Positions 1,582-12,450 of a DNA stretch of 12,632 nucleotides are shown here, piece after piece (position 1 is the first letter of the stretch; each line of letters opens with the position of its first letter). Both the position numbers and the translations under genes were made by a program. The notes under the pieces are model-generated. The model was not told the DNA's origin. It searched no databases and saw nothing but the letters and a program-made list of their open reading frames with translations. This DNA comes from a virus (lineage: Duplodnaviria > Heunggongvirae > Uroviricota > Caudoviricetes): the IMG/VR virus record IMGVR_UViG_2695420382_000014; one strand, given 5' to 3'.

Positions 1582-2139
1582 TCAACAATGAATTTTGAGT
1601 AATTGCTCTACAGTCATATTTTTAATTGCGCCCCGGTTAACAAGAGTCCATCCCTGTTCTTCCAGATAAAACCGGAAAGTCTCCATGGTACAGACCCGTG
1701 CGCCATCAGGAACGGTTTCGGTGAATCTGATGTTGCCGCGTTCGTCGAAGTGAACAACCAGGGTGCGGCCATCGCCTGGAATTATTTTGTCAGTGGGTGG
1801 GGTGTTATTCTGGCGCAGTTCGGCCTCCATGCGATCGAACTCAGCAATGTAGGCTTCTTTAAATGCAGCGGCTTTTTTGCCAGTGAATCCCATCACCAGG
1901 AAAACGAAGCCGTTTTTGGTGATTTGGTACATCGGGCGTTTTTCGCCTTTGGCGTCAGTGTAGGTGACGTCCTCAAAATTGAGGGCGTTAAATTCAGGTG
2001 AGCATTCAGTATTTGCGATGGCACGTAACACATTGTCGTGACGCTTGCCAAAGAACTCTGCGATCGCAATAGACGTAGTGACAGCGCGACCATTTTCGAT
2101 GGTTACGTCAGGGTGAGAAAGGGCAGGGATAGTAGCCAT
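1582..2139 (-). CDS. Rha-family phage regulatory protein (185 aa)
   Basis: N-terminal segment VTIENGRAVTTSIAIAEFFGKRHDNVLRAIAN resembles the Phage_pRha signature. Start placed at internal ATG 2137-2139 (GAGGAT upstream), because the longer track ORF to 2436 would read through a sigma70-like promoter and a hairpin plus U-run. Confidence 0.65.
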   Translation of the reverse strand: MATIPALSHPDVTIENGRAVTTSIAIAEFFGKRHDNVLRAIANTECSPEFNALNFEDVTYTDAKGEKRPMYQITKNGFVFLVMGFTGKKAAAFKEAYIAEFDRMEAELRQNNTPPTDKIIPGDGRTLVVHFDERGNIRFTETVPDGARVCTMETFRFYLEEQGWTLVNRGAIKNMTVEQLLKIHC

Positions 2140-2308
2140 GATGGCATCCTCGAGTGATAAGTTAATTAACTCACCACCGAGGTTTTCCACGACCATAAGG
2201 GTGGTGTGACGTACAGGGGTGGAAATACCGGTCACTCGAGAACCCGGCCAGTCTTGCGACTGCCCTGCACATCCCACCATAATTTGAATGGAGCTGTGCA
2301 TTACGCAT

Positions 2309-2331
2309 AAAAAAACCGCTTCAGCGCGGCT
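2309..2331 (-). terminator. Weak intrinsic-terminator-like hairpin plus U7 run in the Rha leader (minus strand)
   Basis: Minus-strand RNA ...AGCCGCGCUGAAGCGG UUUUUUU: CCGC/GCGG stem 2316-2329 followed by the A-run 2309-2315 on the plus strand (U-run on minus). Stem is short (4-6 bp). Confidence 0.3.
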
Positions 2332-2391
2332 ATGCGCTCGAGTAACGTTCGGGTTTCCACGCCCGGCACCCGTTTTATAAGGTGCAGGTGC

Positions 2392-2420
2392 ACTATAATT
2401 CCACCCGTTCTGGTTTTCAA
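2392..2420 (-). promoter_or_regulatory. Sigma70-like promoter candidate reading leftward toward Rha
   Basis: Minus strand -35 TTGAAA (plus coords 2415-2420), 17-nt spacer, -10 TATAGT (2392-2397). A perfect TATAAT also lies on the plus strand at 2394-2399. Confidence 0.4.
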
Positions 2421-2458
2421 TAGCTACATTCAACATTTTCTCTCACCTTTCATCACCG

Positions 2459-3413: not shown

Positions 3414-3566
3414 TCAGTCAGTGTTTCTGGCTAACCAGCAACGCGCGCCAGATTCGGTTTTAAACGTTTTGCTTTTGGTATACGTCATGGCGGTAAACGT
3501 TCCATCCTGGTTAGGGAACACGCCGCACACCAGAGATTCGTTGTTGCCAAGATCGATAGTATCCAT
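3414..3566 (-). CDS. Small YdaF-like (DUF1391-like) prophage protein, 50 aa
   Basis: Internal ATG at 3564-3566 has GAGG 5 nt upstream; the upstream ATG at 3620 has no SD. Sequence MDTIDLGNNESLV... resembles small Rac-type early-left proteins as recalled from memory. Confidence 0.5.
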   Translation of the reverse strand: MDTIDLGNNESLVCGVFPNQDGTFTAMTYTKSKTFKTESGARCWLARNTD

Positions 3567-3745
3567 GCTGACCTCATTTCCCCTTAACGCCGGGGTGGCG
3601 GAACAAAAAACCTGCTGCATAGTTAAAGATTGAACCCTGCCGTCATGTTCTTACGCCTCGGGCTGGCTACTTAACCCCTGACCACTGTCTGGTAACTCGA
3701 AGTATTGCCCTGCATTCTGTGGGGCGGGGTGGGTTGACGCCTGAA

Positions 3746-3786
3746 AAAATAGCATCATTATTTTTTGATGTAAATAGCATCGCTAT
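3746..3786 (-). promoter_or_regulatory. PL-like leftward promoter overlapped by two repressor-operator-like palindromes
   Basis: Minus strand -35 TTTACA (3769-3774), 17-nt spacer, -10 TATTTT (3746-3751). Operators: ATAGCatcGCTAT at 3774-3786 (perfect inverted repeat) and ATAGCatcATTAT at 3749-3761, centres 25 bp apart. Confidence 0.5.
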
Positions 3787-3801
3787 TGTTTTTGTTGGGG
3801 C

Positions 3802-3826
3802 AAGAAAAAACCACCCTAAGGTGGTT
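3802..3826 (-). terminator. Rho-independent terminator ending the repressor-antitoxin-toxin transcript
   Basis: Minus-strand RNA AACCACC-UUAG-GGUGGUU followed by UUUUCUUG: 7-bp perfect stem at 3809-3826 plus U-run, 17 nt downstream of the toxin stop. Confidence 0.6.
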
Positions 3827-3842
3827 CTGTCGGCGGGAATAA

Positions 3843-4133
3843 TTAACTGTTTTTGCCTGGATACTGTCTTCGAGAATGCACAATATTTACTACTTCTATG
3901 CTTGATGCTGTTACTCGGTAAAGGATGATGTAGTTAGGATGAGTTACAATTTCACGAAGACCAAGAACTCGCTCGCTTGGAGGATACAGGTAAGGATGCT
4001 CTGTGAGCGGCAAAACGGATGTTTCAATTCGAATTTTCATTCTGCGTGCTGCCGCGGGATTTTCTTTAGCTATGTAGGCTACGATCTGGCGCAAATCATC
4101 ACGAGCAGATGGTAGCCATAAAACGGGTAACAT
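3843..4133 (-). CDS. parE: ParE/RelE-family type II toxin (96 aa)
   Basis: Matches the ParE/RelE pattern by eye (ARDDLRQIVAYIAKENPAAARRM...GLREIV..NYIILYRV...IEVVNIVHSRRQ). Start codon overlaps the upstream small ORF's stop (TAATG). Confidence 0.75.
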   Translation of the reverse strand: MLPVLWLPSARDDLRQIVAYIAKENPAAARRMKIRIETSVLPLTEHPYLYPPSERVLGLREIVTHPNYIILYRVTASSIEVVNIVHSRRQYPGKNS

Positions 4134-4327
4134 TATTCACCTCTGTGAGTTGCAGCAGCAATTTGGGCAATAATTTGTTCCATTTCCGCCATTACCTCAT
4201 CATGCGGAATCGCCGGGCGGGGATCCGCGAGGCTTGCTGCTACTTTGGCCCGCAGCCATTCGTTGTAACTATTTTCTTGCTCAACTGTCTCAAATTCTGA
4301 AACCATTGGGGAAAGGACTGTACTCAT
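4133..4327 (-). CDS. Small acidic antitoxin candidate (64 aa), PaaA2-like
   Basis: Immediately upstream of and coupled to the ParE-like gene; GAGGAG Shine-Dalgarno; small acidic protein. The PaaA2 assignment rests on operon architecture recalled from the E. coli O157 PaaR2-PaaA2-ParE2 system, not on a recognised motif. Confidence 0.6.
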   Translation of the reverse strand: MSTVLSPMVSEFETVEQENSYNEWLRAKVAASLADPRPAIPHDEVMAEMEQIIAQIAAATHRGE

Positions 4328-4346
4328 TTTACATATCTCCTCTGAT

Positions 4347-4847
4347 TTAGGCGCGACGGCCTTTTTGTGCAGCTAACCACCGCGCAACCGTACGATCCAT
4401 TGATTCTTTTTTATCTTTCATCTCCTGAAGCATGTGTTCTTGATCTTCTTTCGGAAAAGCTCTGAACGTATGGATTAAATCTCGTTCCATCGGCTCTACG
4501 GCAAACGGTAGTTCATCCTCTGTTTGTTCTGTGTCTGCTGGTAATGCGACTATGTTATCTTGCTGTGGTTCTCGACAATACATCCTTGCAATTTGCAGCA
4601 AATCTACCATGTCTGGCCTGATTGACTCAGGGGGAACTTTCAGTAAGCCAGCAAACTTTAGAACAGCCTCAAGGTTTAGTGGGGTTTGACCATTTAGGTA
4701 GTGACTTACCGCCCCTTGTGTTGAAAACCCCATAATTTCCGCCGCACGTTCCTGAGTCAATCCCAACTGAGATTTCTTTGCCATCCAGATTTCTTTCAGT
4801 CTTCTGGCGGCGTTGAGGTCGGTGTCTGACAATGATTTTCTTTTCAT
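4347..4847 (-). CDS. XRE-family HTH repressor (cI-like, RacR/PaaR2-like), 166 aa
   Basis: HTH_XRE motif LGLTQERAAEIMGFSTQGAVSHYLNG; divergent from a Cro-like gene; operator palindromes in the intergenic region. Start chosen at ATG 4845-4847 (MKRKSL...); the track start at 4877 is GTG. Confidence 0.8.
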   Translation of the reverse strand: MKRKSLSDTDLNAARRLKEIWMAKKSQLGLTQERAAEIMGFSTQGAVSHYLNGQTPLNLEAVLKFAGLLKVPPESIRPDMVDLLQIARMYCREPQQDNIVALPADTEQTEDELPFAVEPMERDLIHTFRAFPKEDQEHMLQEMKDKKESMDRTVARWLAAQKGRRA

Positions 4848-4857
4848 ACATCCAATT

Positions 4858-4924
4858 CTAATAAGATTGCTAATCACTTTGAAATAGCATCACTATTTAC
4901 TTTTAAAAATAACAGTGCTATTAA
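4858..4924. promoter_or_regulatory. OR-like divergent promoter/operator region between repressor and cro-like gene
   Basis: Operators ATAGCatcACTAT (4884-4896) and ATAACagtGCTAT (4909-4921), centres 25 bp apart. Candidate rightward promoter -35 TTTACT 4896-4901 and -10 TATTAA 4919-4924. Candidate leftward promoter -35 TTTCAA (4879-4884) and -10 TATTAG (4858-4863), giving a near-leaderless repressor mRNA. Confidence 0.45.
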
Positions 4925-4958
4925 TTATGCATTGGTAACACATCACATAGGGCGGATT

Positions 4959-5222
4959 ATGAATCTTGGAGAATATTTGCATCATTTTCATATAACCCAG
5001 AGTTCATTTGCTGAGATTGTTGGCGCATCCCAAGGGATGGTCAGCCACGTTATAACGGGGCGTGCAAAACTTACAGGAGAAAAAATATTACGTTGGTGTG
5101 AAGCAACGGGATGGGTGGTGACCCCACATGAGATTGACAGTAAAACCTACCCCAACCCAACTGACGGCTTGCCTGCTGAGTTTCAGGCTAACACACAACC
5201 ATCGGCGGGGGTTGATTCATGA
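4959..5222 (+). CDS. Cro-like HTH protein (YdaS-like), 87 aa
   Basis: Divergent from the repressor; HTH-like segment SQGMVSHVITGRAKLTGEKILRWCEATGWVVTP; ATG 4959 preceded by AGGGCGG; stop overlaps the next start (ATGA). The track start at 4932 is TTG. Confidence 0.7.
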   Translation: MNLGEYLHHFHITQSSFAEIVGASQGMVSHVITGRAKLTGEKILRWCEATGWVVTPHEIDSKTYPNPTDGLPAEFQANTQPSAGVDS

Positions 5223-5644
5223 AAATCAAGCATGAACACATCCGCATGGCGATGAAAGCCTGGGCGCATCCGGACGGTGAAAAAGTTCCGGCAGCTGAAA
5301 TAACCAGGGTTTATTTCGAACTGGGAATGACGTTTCCGGTTCTGCATAACGACAGCAAGCACAACACGCTTTATCTCAACACCCAAAAGATTTTCCGTTG
5401 GCTGGATAAAGACACCCCTGACGCTGTTGAAAAAATTCAGGCGTTGTTACCTGCGATCGAAAGGGCAATGCCACCTCCGCTGGTGGCTCGAATGCGCAGC
5501 CACAGTTCAGCTTATTTTCGGGAACTGGTGGAGACGCATGAACGACTGGTGAGAGACGCTGATGATTTTGTCGCAGTGGCAATCGCCGGTTTCAATCAGA
5601 TGAACCGTGGTGGCCCGGCAGGAAATGCTGTGGCAGTACATTGA
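5219..5644 (+). CDS. YdaT-like protein (141 aa), CII-like regulator or putative toxin of Rac-type prophages
   Basis: Position and size match the Rac racR-ydaS-ydaT arrangement as recalled; translationally coupled to the Cro-like gene. Not confirmed by search. Confidence 0.6.
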   Translation: MKIKHEHIRMAMKAWAHPDGEKVPAAEITRVYFELGMTFPVLHNDSKHNTLYLNTQKIFRWLDKDTPDAVEKIQALLPAIERAMPPPLVARMRSHSSAYFRELVETHERLVRDADDFVAVAIAGFNQMNRGGPAGNAVAVH

Positions 5645-9538: not shown

Positions 9539-11371
9539 ATGGCCCGCATGTTTGATACATTAGGATTTTACATTATGAATGTGCAACATTTTGATTTTTT
9601 TACAGATAATGAGTTTTCTAATCTGGAAAGATATCAAACTTGTAAAGCCATGGCCAAAGGTTATGCGGGCAATTACAAAACCGGGCAGTCAAGGTTGATG
9701 CATGCCCGCTCATACTGCTTCAGCATCGTAGCTGCATATTGGGATACCCTTGCAAAAAAGCAAAAAAGCAGCATTAAAATGAGGGCAGTACCGCACACTG
9801 TTTACATAGAAGACATTCCATGTGATGCACGCGAGCTCGCTGAACGAACAGGTGAGCTTATTGCTCAATTTCCGGCGGAGGACGCTGGATATCTGATTGG
9901 GTCAATTTATACGGTAATGCTGCCATCCGCTTACCGTTCGGAATTGGGGGCTTACTATACCCCCCCACCTTTGGTAGCGCGTCTCTTGGACCTGGCTGAA
10001 AAGTCTGGTGTTGATTTTTCTCATGCATCGGTTATTGATCCTGCGTGTGGTGGCGGTGCATTTTTGGCACCAGTAGCCATTCGAATGTTAAAAAAAGACA
10101 AGGGGTCTTCCCCTGAATGGATGTTGAGGAGAATCAGTCGTCGTTTAAAGGGGATAGAAATCGATCCATTTGCGGCTTGGATGAGTTTGGTATTGCTCGA
10201 ATCTGTACTAATGCCACTATGTGTAAAGGTAAAACGTAGATTGCCTGAAGATACAATTATTGTTGCTGATGCGCTTCAGCAAGATAAATTTTCTGGTTAT
10301 GATCTTGTGGTAGGGAATCCGCCTTACGGACGTGTCACTCTCGATATTAAAACGAGAGAAAAATATTCTCGTTCGTTATTTGGTCATGCAAATCTATATG
10401 GATTGTTCACCGACTTAGCTGTTCGCATGGTTAAAGAGAAAACAGGAGTTATTGCATTTCTTACGCCAACTTCTTTTCTTGGTGGGCAGTATTTCACCGC
10501 GCTGCGAACCCTTTTGACCGAAAAAACTACTCCGTATGCCCTTGATTTCGTCACTGACAGGGATGGGGTCTTTGACGATGTTCTCCAGGAAACAATGTTG
10601 ACAGCATTCAAGGCGGGAGAACATAAAGTTCGGGCCCAGGTATCCTCACTTGTCCCTAAGGGGTTGAACAAAGCAAAAATTGAGAAAATAGGTAATGTTG
10701 ATATAGAAAAAGGTGGAGCAACGTGGCTTTTGCCACGCGTTAAAGATGATGCCTGTTTTCTTAATGTATTAAAACAGATGTCTACGCGTTTAGCTGATCT
10801 GGGATACTCAGTCTCTACAGGTCAGTTAGTCTGGAATCGATTTAAGTCGCAGTTGCGTACGACGAAAGGAAAAAATAGCTACCCATTAGTCTGGGCGGAA
10901 TCAATAACTTCAGCTGGTTTTCGTTTTAGTGCAGACAGAAAAAATCATGTTCCCTATATCGATATAACCCCACAACAGGGTTTCCTTGTGACAAAATCTG
11001 AATGTGTGCTTGTTCAGCGGACAACATCGAAGGAACAGGACAGAAGGATTTTAGCGGCAATTTTACCTCAGGGATTTATAGATGAAACTGGTGGCGTAGT
11101 AGTTGAAAACCATATTAATATTGTATATTCAAACGGATTGTTCTCTGCGGTTCGCCCTGATGTTATTGATATGCTACTTAATTCGCATGTTGTCGATCGG
11201 GCGTTCAGGTGTATAAGCGGAAGTGTTGCTGTTTCGGCCTATGAATTGAATTCAATCCCGTTGCCTTCTCTGGAGCAGGTGATGGAGATTCAATCGTTAA
11301 TTGATGCTGGCGTCCACAGACGGATTATTGAGAGAACTATCGCTGGTTTCTATGGAGTGATGATTGCATGA
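9539..11371 (+). CDS. Gamma-class N6-adenine DNA methyltransferase (Eco57I/TaqI-like MTase domain), 610 aa
   Basis: Motif order X (GAYYTPPPLV), I (VIDPACGGGAFL), IV (VGNPPYG), then a roughly 350-aa C-terminal target-recognition-like region. Start is uncertain: ATG 9539, or ATG 9575 which has TAGGAT 8 nt upstream. Confidence 0.85.
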   Translation: MARMFDTLGFYIMNVQHFDFFTDNEFSNLERYQTCKAMAKGYAGNYKTGQSRLMHARSYCFSIVAAYWDTLAKKQKSSIKMRAVPHTVYIEDIPCDARELAERTGELIAQFPAEDAGYLIGSIYTVMLPSAYRSELGAYYTPPPLVARLLDLAEKSGVDFSHASVIDPACGGGAFLAPVAIRMLKKDKGSSPEWMLRRISRRLKGIEIDPFAAWMSLVLLESVLMPLCVKVKRRLPEDTIIVADALQQDKFSGYDLVVGNPPYGRVTLDIKTREKYSRSLFGHANLYGLFTDLAVRMVKEKTGVIAFLTPTSFLGGQYFTALRTLLTEKTTPYALDFVTDRDGVFDDVLQETMLTAFKAGEHKVRAQVSSLVPKGLNKAKIEKIGNVDIEKGGATWLLPRVKDDACFLNVLKQMSTRLADLGYSVSTGQLVWNRFKSQLRTTKGKNSYPLVWAESITSAGFRFSADRKNHVPYIDITPQQGFLVTKSECVLVQRTTSKEQDRRILAAILPQGFIDETGGVVVENHINIVYSNGLFSAVRPDVIDMLLNSHVVDRAFRCISGSVAVSAYELNSIPLPSLEQVMEIQSLIDAGVHRRIIERTIAGFYGVMIA

Positions 11372-12450
11372 ATCTGCCTGTTGTTCCCCCATTGAATGTT
11401 ATCCGGGAAAGATTACAATTAATTTTCCCTGAAGGGACTGAGAATCGTGGATATTTAATTCGGGAAATAGCTGCAAAAACAATTTTTGTCATGTTTTATG
11501 CTGGTGCGGTTGAGGGGCTGGGGCGATGGATAAGGCCCAGCCAGGTTGTAAGTATGGGAGATTCGCAGGCTGCTCTTACTGATGATGCGTCCAGAGAAAG
11601 CTGGGTAAAGATGACTTTCTCTAAACAAAAGATAAGGCCTGCTGATGCATGGTATGCGGAAAATACGCGTGAGCCAATACGTGATGAAACTATAAAAAAT
11701 GGCCTAATACCTTGCAATGCAATTGTTGAGCGTAAAGGTATACCCACCACATCCTCTCGTCCTCGTTACAGTTTGAATCGCTCTTTTGCAGCACTCTTTG
11801 ATGCCGGGCTTGAAGGAGATTCGCTGCTGAGTGCAATAAGTTCCTGGCAAGAAAATCATTTGAACAAAGCCGCTCTTGCTAGGTTGCGTTTATTGAAATC
11901 AGGGGCAGTGATTGCTGCTGATGCCGTAGTCGTCACTTTCCCAAATGGAGAGAAGAGAACTTTAGCTCCGGGCCCGTCAAGTACAATAGCTAAGGCCGTC
12001 ATCGAAGTTTTTGCTCCTAATTTTCTTAAGAATCCAACTGTGCTCTGGTTGTCTGAATCCGGGAATAAAGTTGTTGCTCAGGATGATGTATTGGCAAAAG
12101 CATTGGGGCTGAATATTGATGCCTCAAAAGCACTTCCAGATATTATTTTGATTGATTTGGGAGAGGACCGAACGGGTTCGGACATGCTTGTAGTTTTCAC
12201 TGAAGTAGTTGCGACAGATGGGCCTATAAACAGGGAACGAAAAGTTACTCTCACTCATTTGGCTATTGACGCTGGGTTCAGCGAGAAAAATCTTGCATTC
12301 CTTACGGCATTTATGGACAGAAGTGCTCTGCCTTTTAAAAAGGCAATACCAGAATTGGCGTGGGGATCTTATGCATGGTTTGCTTCTGAACCGGAGCACT
12401 TAATTGATCTTCGGGATGGTTATCCGGTAAAGATCAGCCAGAGAAAATGA
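11368..12450 (+). CDS. Putative restriction endonuclease partner of the methyltransferase (possibly BsuBI/PstI-like), 360 aa
   Basis: Start overlaps the methyltransferase stop (ATGA); same AT-rich composition by eye. The nuclease assignment is inferred from context; no unambiguous PD-(D/E)xK or HNH motif was found by eye. Confidence 0.5.
   Translation: MNLPVVPPLNVIRERLQLIFPEGTENRGYLIREIAAKTIFVMFYAGAVEGLGRWIRPSQVVSMGDSQAALTDDASRESWVKMTFSKQKIRPADAWYAENTREPIRDETIKNGLIPCNAIVERKGIPTTSSRPRYSLNRSFAALFDAGLEGDSLLSAISSWQENHLNKAALARLRLLKSGAVIAADAVVVTFPNGEKRTLAPGPSSTIAKAVIEVFAPNFLKNPTVLWLSESGNKVVAQDDVLAKALGLNIDASKALPDIILIDLGEDRTGSDMLVVFTEVVATDGPINRERKVTLTHLAIDAGFSEKNLAFLTAFMDRSALPFKKAIPELAWGSYAWFASEPEHLIDLRDGYPVKISQRK

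What the first reader, a model, noticed from the sequence alone, without database searches (positions are those of the whole stretch)
3749..4921. Same ATAGC-N3-GCTAT operator motif at four sites, split between OR-like and OL-like positions about 1.1 kb apart
Four 13-bp sites share the half-site ATAGC: 3749-3761, 3774-3786 (perfect palindrome), 4884-4896 and 4909-4921. In both pairs the centres are 25 bp apart, and each pair overlaps a candidate promoter. This is the expected signature of a cI-like repressor controlling two promoters, and the two pairs bracket the toxin-antitoxin insertion. It also predicts cooperative binding or looping across the 1.1-kb spacing.
Basis: seen in the sequence. 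Interest (0 to 1): 0.5.

Follow-up and report, generated by a model that had tools for sequence, protein, structure and literature searches.

The report
Prophage repressor operators OR and OL

Summary
All four 13-bp sites are at the stated coordinates, 25 bp apart within each pair. A weight matrix built only from distant relatives ranks them as the four best hits in the window. A fifth, weaker site (OR3, 4861-4873) was missed.

The sites are the operators of a lambdoid immunity region. OR1, OR2 and OR3 lie between the divergent 166-aa repressor gene and a Cro-like gene. OL1 and OL2 lie over a leftward PL-like promoter, beyond the repressor-PaaA2-ParE operon and its terminator.

Distances from the repressor ATG to the OR3, OR2 and OR1 centres are 20, 43 and 68 bp, against 19, 42 and 66 bp in lambda.

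The gene layout matches the CP-933P paaR2-paaA2-parE2 / ydaS-ydaT immunity region, which was characterised experimentally (Jurenas 2021). CP-933P uses a different operator sequence.

Here the repressor joins a lambda-cI-like DNA-binding domain to the PaaR2-type C-terminal module. It has no LexA-type peptidase domain.

The operator consensus AATAGCAWTGCTATT travels with this repressor domain and its Cro across unrelated prophage backbones and different cargo genes.

Verdict: a new, heteroimmune member of a known kind. Binding, cooperativity and OL-OR looping are inferred, not shown.

The parts
3414..3620 (-). First gene of the leftward (PL) operon, ydfA-like DUF1391. RefSeq homologues are annotated shorter, at about 51 aa.
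   Evidence: Pfam DUF1391 E=3e-28; annotated ydfA in L003 and L011.
3746..3774 (-). PL-like promoter: -35 TTTACA (3774..3769), 17-bp spacer, -10 TATTTT (3751..3746).
   Evidence: Found by the consensus scan, 9/12 matches with a TG before the -10. It occupies the position of PL933P, which is repressed about 100-fold by PaaR2 and YdaS in CP-933P (PMC8630535).
3749..3761 (.). OL1, ATAGCATCATTAT. It overlaps the spacer and -10 of PL.
   Evidence: Scores 17.4 bits with the independent matrix. The position is conserved in L001, L002, L003, L005, L007 and L009.
3774..3786 (.). OL2, ATAGCATCGCTAT (perfect palindrome). It touches the -35 of PL.
   Evidence: Scores 18.4 bits. Conserved in relatives, 24-26 bp from OL1.
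3802..3828 (-). Intrinsic terminator ending the repressor-antitoxin-toxin transcript: a 9-bp stem with the T-run starting within its 3' arm and continuing as TTCTT.
   Evidence: RNA fold -15.1 kcal/mol, z = -3.2. The hairpin is conserved in L001-L003.
3843..4133 (-). ParE-family toxin, 96 aa.
   Evidence: Pfam ParE_toxin E=1.8e-17; 76% DNA identity to CP-933P parE2.
4133..4327 (-). PaaA2-family antitoxin, 64 aa.
   Evidence: Pfam PaaA2 E=3e-23.
4347..4847 (-). 166-aa repressor: lambda-cI-like N-terminal HTH domain (residues 1 to about 90), a disordered linker, and a PaaR2-type C-terminal helical hairpin (residues about 119-166).
4855..4883 (-). PRM-like promoter: -35 TTCAAA (4883..4878), 17-bp spacer, -10 TAGAAT (4860..4855). 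The -10 lies 7 nt before the ATG at 4847, which implies a leaderless repressor mRNA.
   Evidence: Consensus scan. A -10 hexamer 6-7 nt before the ATG is conserved in all relatives. Leaderless paaR2 was shown experimentally in CP-933P.
4861..4873 (.). It fills the PRM spacer, with its centre 23 bp from OR2.
   Evidence: Fifth-best hit in the window. The stronger form ATAGTTTTACTAA sits at the same position in L005, L007 and L009. The score alone is not significant; the case rests on position and conservation.
4884..4896 (.). OR2, ATAGCATCACTAT. It abuts the -35 of PRM and touches the -35 of PR.
   Evidence: Scores 19.1 bits. Its centre is 43 bp from the repressor ATG, against 42 bp in lambda.
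4896..4924 (+). PR-like promoter (my reading): -35 TTTACT (4896-4901), 17-bp spacer, -10 TATTAA (4919-4924).
   Evidence: Read from the sequence. It was not reported by the scan because the -10 lacks the final T. It is conserved as TT(T/G)AC(T/A) and TATTAA in most relatives (TATTTG in L009), and it is a mirror copy of PL.
4909..4921 (.). OR1, ATAACAGTGCTAT. It overlaps the spacer and -10 of PR.
   Evidence: Scores 18.2 bits.
4959..5222 (+). Cro analogue, an 87-aa HTH protein in the position of YdaS.
   Evidence: Pfam HTH_3 E=4e-4, below the curated cut-off. It is 61-85% identical to the Cro-position proteins of every locus that carries this operator motif, and unrelated to CP-933P YdaS.
5212..5229 (.). 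YdaT (cII analogue) operator, TTGATTCATGAAAATCAA.
   Evidence: Exact match to the published YdaT OM consensus TTGATT-N6-AATCAA, at the same place at the end of the cro-like gene (PMC9986795).
5219..5644 (+). YdaT, the cII analogue.
   Evidence: Pfam YdaT_toxin E=5e-9; 79% DNA identity to CP-933P ydaT.

Best explanation
The sites are the operators of the lysis-lysogeny switch of a lambdoid prophage of the CP-933P type (E. coli / Shigella).

Proposed mechanism:
- In the lysogen, dimers of the 166-aa repressor bind OR1 and OR2. This blocks the rightward promoter PR, which drives the cro-like gene, ydaT and the replication genes.
- Repressor dimers also bind OL1 and OL2. This blocks the leftward promoter PL, which drives ydfA-ydfB-ydfC, the Rha/Ash gene and dicB.
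- Repressor at OR2 abuts the -35 of PRM, so it probably stimulates transcription of its own leaderless mRNA. That mRNA also carries the PaaA2-ParE toxin-antitoxin pair and ends at the terminator just before OL2.
- The weak site OR3 fills the PRM spacer. It is probably the preferred Cro site and the site of negative autoregulation.
- Pairs of adjacent dimers, and possibly the OL and OR pairs 1.1-1.16 kb apart, would be held together through the PaaR2-type C-terminal module.

Status of each step:
- Shown here: the sites, their geometry, their conservation, and their co-inheritance with the repressor DNA-binding domain and Cro.
- Shown experimentally only for the heteroimmune sister CP-933P: repressor and Cro binding at OR, repression of PR, PRM and PL, and the leaderless mRNA.
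- Inferred: binding here, activation at OR2, cooperativity and looping.
For: 1. Sites and spacing were verified. Weight matrices built from relatives single them out against simulations, against the rest of the window, against the CP-933P control and against 100 kb of a related genome.

2. Six lineages show the same layout. Their repressors are 45-90% identical, and the only blastn comparison run against a same-motif lineage (L001) aligned at about 80%. All have three sites at OR, spaced 25 and then 23-24 bp, and two at OL, spaced 24-26 bp. TA at positions 2-3 and 11-12 is invariant, and the centre varies.

3. The window's DNA homology to CP-933P stops at 3736, 13 bp left of OL1. It resumes only in parE and in paaA2 plus the repressor C-terminus, then is absent from 4413 to 5207. 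So the operators, the repressor DNA-binding domain and cro are exactly the immunity-specific segments. CP-933P carries its own, different operators at the same places.

4. The motif stays the same when the cargo changes to HigB+HTH, HipA_2+DUF3037 or a 91-aa gene with no Pfam hit. It therefore follows the repressor and Cro, not the toxin-antitoxin pair.

5. The repressor N-terminal domain is lambda-cI-like. It keeps the basic N-terminal arm and acidic residues at the positions of lambda E34 and D38 (alignment; their role in activation is from established lambda work).

6. Site centres lie 20, 43 and 68 bp from the repressor ATG, against 19, 42 and 66 bp in lambda.

7. The PL and PRM promoters were found independently over the sites.

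8. The C-terminal 44 residues are 52% identical to PaaR2 (E=5e-15). PaaR2 is reported to be an octamer in solution (PMC8630535).
Against: - There are no binding or expression data for this repressor or this motif. No paper in the searchable library contains the site sequences in this context.
- PR fails the promoter scanner's criteria.
- By score alone, OR3 is within the range of chance sites in 100 kb of genome.
- The last T of OR2 and OL2, and the TAT end of OR1 and OL1, double as parts of the -35 and -10 hexamers. Part of the right-half conservation could therefore reflect promoter constraint. The promoter-free left halves are equally conserved.
- No OL3 was found, so lambda-style OL3-OR3 repression of PRM is not supported.
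- Repressor and Cro co-vary, so the sequence cannot say which protein (or both) reads the motif.
- Looping has not been demonstrated for any PaaR2-type repressor.
Confidence: 0.85

Rival explanations
1. The motif is read only, or mainly, by the Cro analogue (87 aa). The 166-aa protein would recognise something else in the same intergenic regions.
For: The Cro analogue is co-inherited with the motif just as strictly as the repressor domain is: 61-85% identity, with the helix SQGMVSHV conserved. In CP-933P the authors could not assign exact sequences to PaaR2 as against YdaS, and they described two overlapping repeat types.
Against: In lambda, 434, P22 and CP-933P, repressor and Cro share the operators. 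No second conserved repeat family appears in OR or OL here. Five sites in lambda's geometry relative to PRM fit a cI-type reader.
Confidence: 0.07
2. The sites are autoregulatory operators of the toxin-antitoxin module (the PaaA2-ParE complex), as in classical type II systems.
For: The pairs flank the operon that contains the toxin-antitoxin genes. A review of Hallez 2010 reports partial repression of the paaR promoter by PaaA-ParE (PMC4803016).
Against: PaaA2 has no DNA-binding domain. The same motif and layout occur where the cargo is HigB+HTH, HipA_2+DUF3037, or no toxin-antitoxin pair at all. CP-933P has homologous paaA2-parE2 (76% DNA identity) but lacks the motif entirely.
Confidence: 0.02
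3. These are chance AT-rich palindromes, or promoter elements conserved only because the promoters are conserved. No dedicated DNA-binding protein would be involved.
For: The loose pattern is not enriched over the window. The right ends of the sites overlap the -35 and -10 hexamers.
Against: None of 2000 simulations gave five hits or a spaced pair. The dyad symmetry is conserved, including the halves outside the promoter hexamers. The motif is swapped for another when the repressor type changes, while the flanks stay homologous.
Confidence: 0.02

Closest known systems
Immunity region of cryptic prophage CP-933P / Sp12 of E. coli O157:H7: paaR2-paaA2-parE2 with ydaS-ydaT, OR1-3, OL1-3, PR, PRM, PL, PRE (Jurenas et al. 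2021, PMC8630535; Prolic-Kalinsek et al. 2023, PMC9986795)
   Same: The gene order is the same: ydfA-side operon, PL/OL, parE, paaA2, repressor, OR, cro analogue, ydaT. The families are also shared:
- PaaA2 and ParE.
- YdaT at 79% DNA identity, with an exact YdaT operator.
- The repressor's C-terminal 44 residues, 52% identical.
- The DNA left of PL, 93% identical.

Other shared features: a -10 hexamer directly before the repressor ATG (leaderless), no S24 peptidase domain, and OL-OR about 1 kb apart.
   Different: The DNA-binding part of the repressor is unrelated: a lambda-cI-like domain in a 166-aa protein here, against 123-aa PaaR2. The Cro analogue is unrelated to YdaS. The operator sequence differs: AATAGCAWTGCTATT here, against repeats built on GTTTAGTAA. 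There are two OL sites here against three reported. Nothing has been tested experimentally here.
Bacteriophage lambda cI / Cro with OR1-3 and OL1-3
   Same: The repressor N-terminal domain is homologous in sequence and predicted fold. Also shared:
- Three sites at OR, at nearly the same distances from the repressor ATG (20/43/68 against 19/42/66 bp).
- Adjacent-site spacing of 25 and 23 bp, against 24 and 23 bp.
- OR2 next to the PRM -35.
- A leaderless repressor message.
- Cargo genes and a terminator between the repressor gene and OL.
   Different: The core is 13-15 bp with a different sequence, not lambda's 17-bp operator. The recognition helix differs (TQGAVSHYLN against QSGVGALFN). The C-terminal domain is a roughly 45-aa helical hairpin instead of the S24 LexA-type domain, so RecA-mediated self-cleavage is not expected. 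There is no OL3. OL and OR are 1.16 kb apart rather than 2.4 kb. The cII analogue is YdaT.
Non-cleavable lambdoid repressors inactivated by antirepressors (Salmonella Gifsy prophages; recalled from Lemire et al. 2011, not checked here)
   Same: A short repressor without a peptidase domain. An antirepressor-type module (C4 antisense RNA, isrK, and an Ash/pRha protein) is present in the same prophage.
   Different: No sequence relationship to Gifsy repressors was tested. No LexA box (CTGT-N8-ACAG) occurs in the window. The Rha/Ash gene lies in the repressed PL operon, so it is not obviously an induction trigger.

Membership tests
Lambdoid immunity region (cI / Cro / OR / OL switch) | Divergent repressor and cro genes separated by a short intergenic region that holds several dyad-symmetric operators overlapping PR and PRM. 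| tested here: met
   The 111-bp intergenic region 4848-4958 holds three sites. PRM was found by the scan; PR was read by eye.
Lambdoid immunity region (cI / Cro / OR / OL switch) | A second operator set of the same sequence over a leftward promoter, beyond the repressor operon. | tested here: met
   OL1 and OL2 lie over the scanned promoter 3774..3746. OL and OR are 40-48-nt repeats, 73-75% identical.
Lambdoid immunity region (cI / Cro / OR / OL switch) | Operators co-vary with the repressor and Cro (immunity specificity). | tested here: met
   The motif is present in every lineage examined that carries this N-terminal domain and Cro. It is absent from CP-933P, which has the same flanks.
Lambdoid immunity region (cI / Cro / OR / OL switch) | The repressor physically binds the operators and represses PR and PL. 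| not testable with these tools
   This needs EMSA, footprinting or reporter assays. It has been done only for CP-933P (PMC8630535).
Lambda cI protein family (HTH N-terminal domain plus S24 LexA-like C-terminal domain) | N-terminal five-helix HTH domain homologous to lambda cI. | tested here: met
   phmmer E=3e-9 over residues 2-81; Foldseek TM 0.81-0.92, 37-40% identity.
Lambda cI protein family (HTH N-terminal domain plus S24 LexA-like C-terminal domain) | C-terminal S24 peptidase / oligomerisation domain with the RecA-stimulated self-cleavage site. | tested here: not met
   Pfam finds only HTH_3 and HTH_31. The model shows a disordered linker followed by a helix-turn-helix hairpin at 119-165. 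The alignment to lambda cI ends near residue 90.
PaaR2-PaaA2-ParE2 three-gene module / CP-933P-type immunity region | A PaaA2-family antitoxin and a ParE-family toxin immediately downstream of the regulator, in one operon. | tested here: met
   Pfam PaaA2 E=3e-23 and ParE_toxin E=1.8e-17. The gaps are 19 bp between the repressor gene and paaA2, and the paaA2 and parE reading frames overlap by 1 bp. A single terminator follows parE.
PaaR2-PaaA2-ParE2 three-gene module / CP-933P-type immunity region | The regulator is homologous to PaaR2. | tested here: inconclusive
   Only the C-terminal 44 residues match (52%, E=5e-15). The N-terminal DNA-binding parts show no similarity.
PaaR2-PaaA2-ParE2 three-gene module / CP-933P-type immunity region | Operators of the CP-933P type (repeats with consensus GTTTAGTAA). 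| tested here: not met
   The OR and OL sequences differ. The CP-933P locus has no site above 7 bits with this motif's matrix.
PaaR2-PaaA2-ParE2 three-gene module / CP-933P-type immunity region | A YdaT cII analogue with its TTGATT-N6-AATCAA operator at the end of the cro-like gene. | tested here: met
   Pfam YdaT_toxin; exact operator at 5212-5229.
PaaR2-PaaA2-ParE2 three-gene module / CP-933P-type immunity region | Repressor octamerisation and a leaderless repressor mRNA. | not testable with these tools
   The sequence is compatible: a -10 TAGAAT lies 7 nt before the ATG with no Shine-Dalgarno sequence, and the C-terminal module is conserved. Confirmation needs 5' RACE and SEC-MALS.

The most novel reading that the evidence does not exclude
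The roughly 45-aa PaaR2-type C-terminal helical hairpin may be a portable oligomerisation module that nature has fused to at least three unrelated DNA-binding heads. The heads are PaaR2's own, that of a 132-aa family, and a lambda-cI-like head; 244-255-aa forms carry two heads in tandem.

In this prophage the module would replace the whole S24 domain of lambda cI while lambda's operator geometry is kept almost base for base. If so, pairwise cooperativity, PRM activation and OL-OR looping over 1.1 kb would all be supplied by a minimal domain unrelated to lambda's. The switch would be SOS-independent, and induction would run through the C4/isrK-controlled Ash/Rha antirepressor-like module in the PL operon.
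Probability: 0.3. Interest if true: 0.45.

Novelty: new member of a known kind. Interest (0 to 1): 0.27.

Why it matters
It confirms that the first-stage reader can recognise phage operators from raw sequence. It also assigns a concrete operator consensus (AATAGCAWTGCTATT), promoter map and site order to an immunity type for which I found no description.

That immunity type is carried by 72 of 5,426 complete E. coli genomes, including O104:H4 and O145:H28 strains, and the closest database proteins are named as Shigella sonnei and Escherichia albertii.

Biologically it is a natural domain-swap experiment. A lambda-type DNA-binding head sits on the small PaaR2-type tail, with lambda-like operator spacing. 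This could be used to ask how much of lambda's cooperativity and looping depends on the large S24 domain.

It also shows that the slot between the repressor gene and OL is a general landing site for toxin-antitoxin or defence cargo expressed from the lysogenic promoter. None of this changes current understanding of lambdoid switches.

Tried and rejected
- **Loose pattern statistics**. They were not significant by themselves, so I replaced them with weight-matrix, geometry and comparative tests.
- **Genome-contig scan with the repressor**. No confirmed relative was found; that collection holds one genome per species. I used the search for homologous proteins and the look-up of encoding contigs instead.
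- **Cultured phages.** No INPHARED phage encodes this repressor. The best match is lambda cI at 31%, and DNA matches cover only the flanks.
- **Literature.** No paper in the searchable library contains the site sequences in this context. A 'PaaR1' search returned only unrelated type VI secretion papers. The Hallez 2010 paper was cited only through a review and was not itself consulted, so I could not check whether PaaR1 of O157:H7 resembles this repressor.
- **A third OL site.** Nothing scored above 7 bits near OL in the window or in any relative.
- **LexA box** CTGT-N8-ACAG. None occurs in the window.
- **Terminator scan.** It missed the hairpin after parE, probably because the stem absorbs part of the T-run (my guess). 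Folding confirmed the hairpin.
- **Toxin-antitoxin autoregulation and chance** as explanations. Both were rejected on the comparative data (see the rival explanations).
Full report
**1. Observation**

The four sites are where the finding says:
- 3749-3761 ATAGCATCATTAT
- 3774-3786 ATAGCATCGCTAT (a perfect dyad)
- 4884-4896 ATAGCATCACTAT
- 4909-4921 ATAACAGTGCTAT

The centres are 25 bp apart in both pairs.

The loose pattern with up to 2 mismatches is not enriched across the window: 8 hits against 3.8 expected, and 11 of 200 shuffles reach 8. The motif count alone therefore proves nothing. The arrangement does.

- A weight matrix built without the window's own sites puts the four sites and a fifth (4861-4873) at the top of the window, with a gap to background (11.6 against 8.8 bits).
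- In 2000 first-order Markov simulations, a mean of 0.25 sites reached that threshold. None had five sites, and none had a pair spaced 22-27 bp.
- A matrix built only from three distant loci (L005, L007, L009), whose repressors are 47-75% identical over the shared part, scores the four sites at 17.4-19.1 bits. OR3 scores 11.0, the rest of the window at most 8.6, and the CP-933P control at most 8.6.
- In 100 kb of E. coli FDAARGOS_944, sites of 16 bits or more occur only at the four operator positions. The sample was its copy of this prophage with flanks, plus 50 kb of unrelated chromosome.

**2. Gene context**

On the minus strand, from right to left:
- a 166-aa HTH protein (4847..4347)
- a PaaA2-family antitoxin (4327..4133)
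- a ParE-family toxin (4133..3843)
- a strong hairpin followed by a T-run (3828..3802; -15.1 kcal/mol, z = -3.2)
- the OL pair
- ydfA (DUF1391), which leads toward ydfB, ydfC, a Rha/Ash gene and dicB in the annotated relatives

On the plus strand, after the OR sites:
- an 87-aa HTH protein (4959-5222)
- YdaT (5219-5644)
- replication genes

This is the layout of the CP-933P immunity region of E. coli O157:H7. In that prophage PaaR2, YdaS and YdaT were shown to act as cI, Cro and cII analogues. The evidence there covers EMSA and DNase I footprints at OR, gfp reporters for PR, PRM, PL and PRE, a leaderless paaR2 mRNA, and three OL operators upstream of a PL promoter (PMC8630535). The YdaT operator TTGATT-N6-AATCAA (PMC9986795) is present exactly at 5212-5229.

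**3. This is a different immunity type from CP-933P**

CP-933P operators are built on GTTTAGTAA-type repeats and contain no ATAG-N5-CTAT site.

Aligning the window to the CP-933P locus gives this pattern:
- 93% identity up to 3736, which is 13 bp left of OL1
- no match across OL, PL and the terminator
- 76% identity in parE and in paaA2 plus the repressor's C-terminus (3886-4012 and 4194-4412)
- nothing from 4413 to 5207, which covers the repressor's DNA-binding part, OR and cro
- 79% identity in ydaT

The segments that differ are therefore exactly the operators and the proteins expected to read them. This is the classical signature of an immunity region.

**4. The repressor**

Residues 2-81 align to the lambda cI N-terminal domain (E=3e-9). 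The AlphaFold model has a mean pLDDT of 79, with the N-terminal domain mostly at 84-94. It superposes on lambda cI N-terminal structures with TM 0.81-0.92, rmsd 1.2-2.1 A and 37-40% identity.

The alignment keeps several lambda features:
- the basic N-terminal arm (KRK for KKK)
- Gln33 and Asn52
- acidic residues at the positions of Glu34 and Asp38, which form lambda's positive-control patch according to established lambda work

The recognition helix differs (TQGAVSHYLN against QSGVGALFN), which fits a different operator.

After a disordered linker (residues 94-111 have pLDDT below 50; no helix until 119), the last 44 residues form a helix-turn-long-helix. This segment is 52% identical to the C-terminus of PaaR2 (E=5e-15). 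There is no S24 peptidase domain.

A family alignment shows this C-terminal module attached to three kinds of head:
- PaaR2's own
- that of a 132-aa family
- the lambda-like one

Forms of 244-255 aa carry the lambda-like head plus the 132-aa family's head in tandem.

**5. Comparative test**

Proteins that share the lambda-like head were located on contigs. They are 47-75% identical over the shared part. The loci are L005/L006 (the protein is named as Salmonella enterica subsp. diarizonae by its source), L007/L008 and L009/L010.

These loci have different cargo after the repressor gene:
- HigB plus an HTH protein (L005/L006)
- HipA_2 plus DUF3037 (L007/L008)
- only a 91-aa gene with no Pfam hit before a Rha gene (L009); the gene call for L010 lists nothing in that slot

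Yet each has three sites at OR, spaced 25 and then 23-24 bp, and two sites beyond the cargo, spaced 24-26 bp.

Over 30 sites from six lineages:
- T2, A3, T11 and A12 are invariant
- position 1/13 is A/T in 54 of 60 half-sites
- positions 4-5 prefer G and C
- the centre is variable
- the flanking A and T are invariant
- the 15-bp consensus is AATAGCAATGCTATT, with 17.9 bits of information

The Cro-position protein is homologous in all of these lineages (61-85% identity, helix SQGMVSHV conserved) and is unrelated to CP-933P YdaS. The motif therefore travels with the repressor head and Cro. It does not travel with the toxin-antitoxin pair or with the flanking genes.

**6. The missed site and the promoter map**

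The site 4861-4873 (ATAAGATTGCTAA) lies 23 bp from OR2 and is the OR3 equivalent. In L005, L007 and L009 the same position holds the better site ATAGTTTTACTAA. By score alone a site of this strength turns up about twice per 100 kb, so the case for OR3 rests on position and conservation.

The consensus scan independently reports two promoters:
- a leftward promoter, TTCAAA-17-TAGAAT (4883..4855), whose -10 ends 7 nt before the repressor ATG
- a leftward promoter, TTTACA-17-TATTTT (3774..3746), over OL1 and OL2

A -10 hexamer 6-7 nt before the repressor ATG, with no room for a Shine-Dalgarno sequence, is conserved in every lineage. This matches the leaderless paaR2 and lambda cI messages.

PR is my own reading: TTTACT at 4896-4901, a 17-bp spacer, and TATTAA at 4919-4924. 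It is a mirror copy of PL and is conserved. The scanner rejects it because the -10 lacks the final T.

Relative to the repressor ATG, the OR3, OR2 and OR1 centres lie at 20, 43 and 68 bp. The annotated lambda record gives 19, 42 and 66 bp. OR2 abuts the PRM -35, OR3 fills the PRM spacer, OR1 covers the PR -10, and OR2 touches the PR -35. No third OL site exists here or in the relatives.

**7. Mechanism proposed**

- Repressor dimers at OR1/OR2 and at OL1/OL2 shut off PR and PL.
- The OR2-bound dimer probably stimulates PRM.
- OR3 probably serves Cro and negative autoregulation.
- The PRM transcript carries the toxin-antitoxin pair and stops at the terminator before OL2.

Cooperative pairing, and OL-OR looping over 1.11-1.16 kb, are plausible. 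The spacing is lambda-like, and the C-terminal module is shared with PaaR2, which is reported to octamerise. Neither cooperativity nor looping has been shown for any member of this repressor family. I put about 0.85 on the operator assignment and about 0.4-0.5 on looping.

**8. Rivals**

- Toxin-antitoxin autoregulation is excluded by the cargo swaps, and by CP-933P having homologous paaA2-parE2 without the motif.
- Chance or promoter-only conservation is excluded by the simulations, by the conserved dyad halves outside the hexamers, and by the motif swap between immunity types.
- A 'Cro only' reading cannot be excluded from sequence but is unlikely by analogy.

**9. Novelty**

The architecture is published for CP-933P, and the logic is that of lambda. 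What I did not find described is this immunity type:
- its operator consensus
- its 3 + 2 site map
- the chimeric repressor, with a lambda-type head on a PaaR2-type tail

No paper in the library holds these site sequences in this context, and no cultured phage in INPHARED encodes the repressor. The type occurs in 72 of 5,426 complete E. coli genomes, including O104:H4 and O145:H28 strains. The window's protein is identical to one named as Shigella sonnei by its source.

I classify it as a new (heteroimmune) member of a known kind, of modest interest.

Noticed in passing
window 2197-2284 (-) and 2309-2385 (-); ORF 1582-2436 (-): Rfam gathering-level hits to C4 antisense RNA (70.9 bits) and isrK Hfq-binding RNA (61.2 bits). 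Both lie on the same strand as, and within the 5' part of, a 284-aa Ash + pRha ORF in the leftward operon. The arrangement resembles the P1 immI and Gifsy-1 isrK-anrP antirepressor modules (a resemblance recalled from memory). It may matter for how a repressor without a peptidase domain is inactivated.
   Followed up: no
window 9539-11371 (+) and 11368-12450 (+): A restriction-modification pair inside the prophage's rightward early region. It consists of a 610-aa N6-adenine / Eco57I-type methyltransferase and a 360-aa BsuBI/PstI-family endonuclease with overlapping reading frames.
   Followed up: no
window 5212-5229: An exact copy of the published YdaT (cII analogue) operator, TTGATT-N6-AATCAA. 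It spans the end of the cro-like gene and the start of ydaT, as in CP-933P.
   Followed up: partly
L005 3612-4339; L007 3787-5360; L009 4018-4293; window 3843-4327: The slot between the repressor gene and OL holds different cargo in different relatives: PaaA2-ParE, HigB plus an HTH protein, HipA_2 plus DUF3037, or a 91-aa gene with no Pfam hit. This behaves like the rexAB position of lambda, as a site for cargo expressed in the lysogen.
   Followed up: partly
proteins P0013, P0018, P0020, P0022 (loci L007-L010, gene at 3001-3735/3768): Repressors of 243-255 aa carry two different HTH domains in tandem before the PaaR2-type C-terminal module: the lambda-like head and the head of a separate 132-aa family. 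Their loci show the ATAG-N5-CTAT operators. Whether a second operator type is also present was not examined.
   Followed up: no
window 3577-3736: The long 5' leader between PL and ydfA is 93% identical to CP-933P, right up to the immunity boundary. It includes a G-rich block, GGGGCGGGGTGGGTTG (3722-3737). No Rfam family matches it, and its role is unknown.
   Followed up: no
L011 (NZ_CP065613.1 635000-684999): In E. coli FDAARGOS_944 the prophage with this immunity region (98% identical) is decayed. It has two ISEc60 insertions and frameshifted terminase and Q genes, and it sits next to a tRNA-Ser gene and mtfA. It also carries four tRNA genes upstream of the lysis genes.
   Followed up: no
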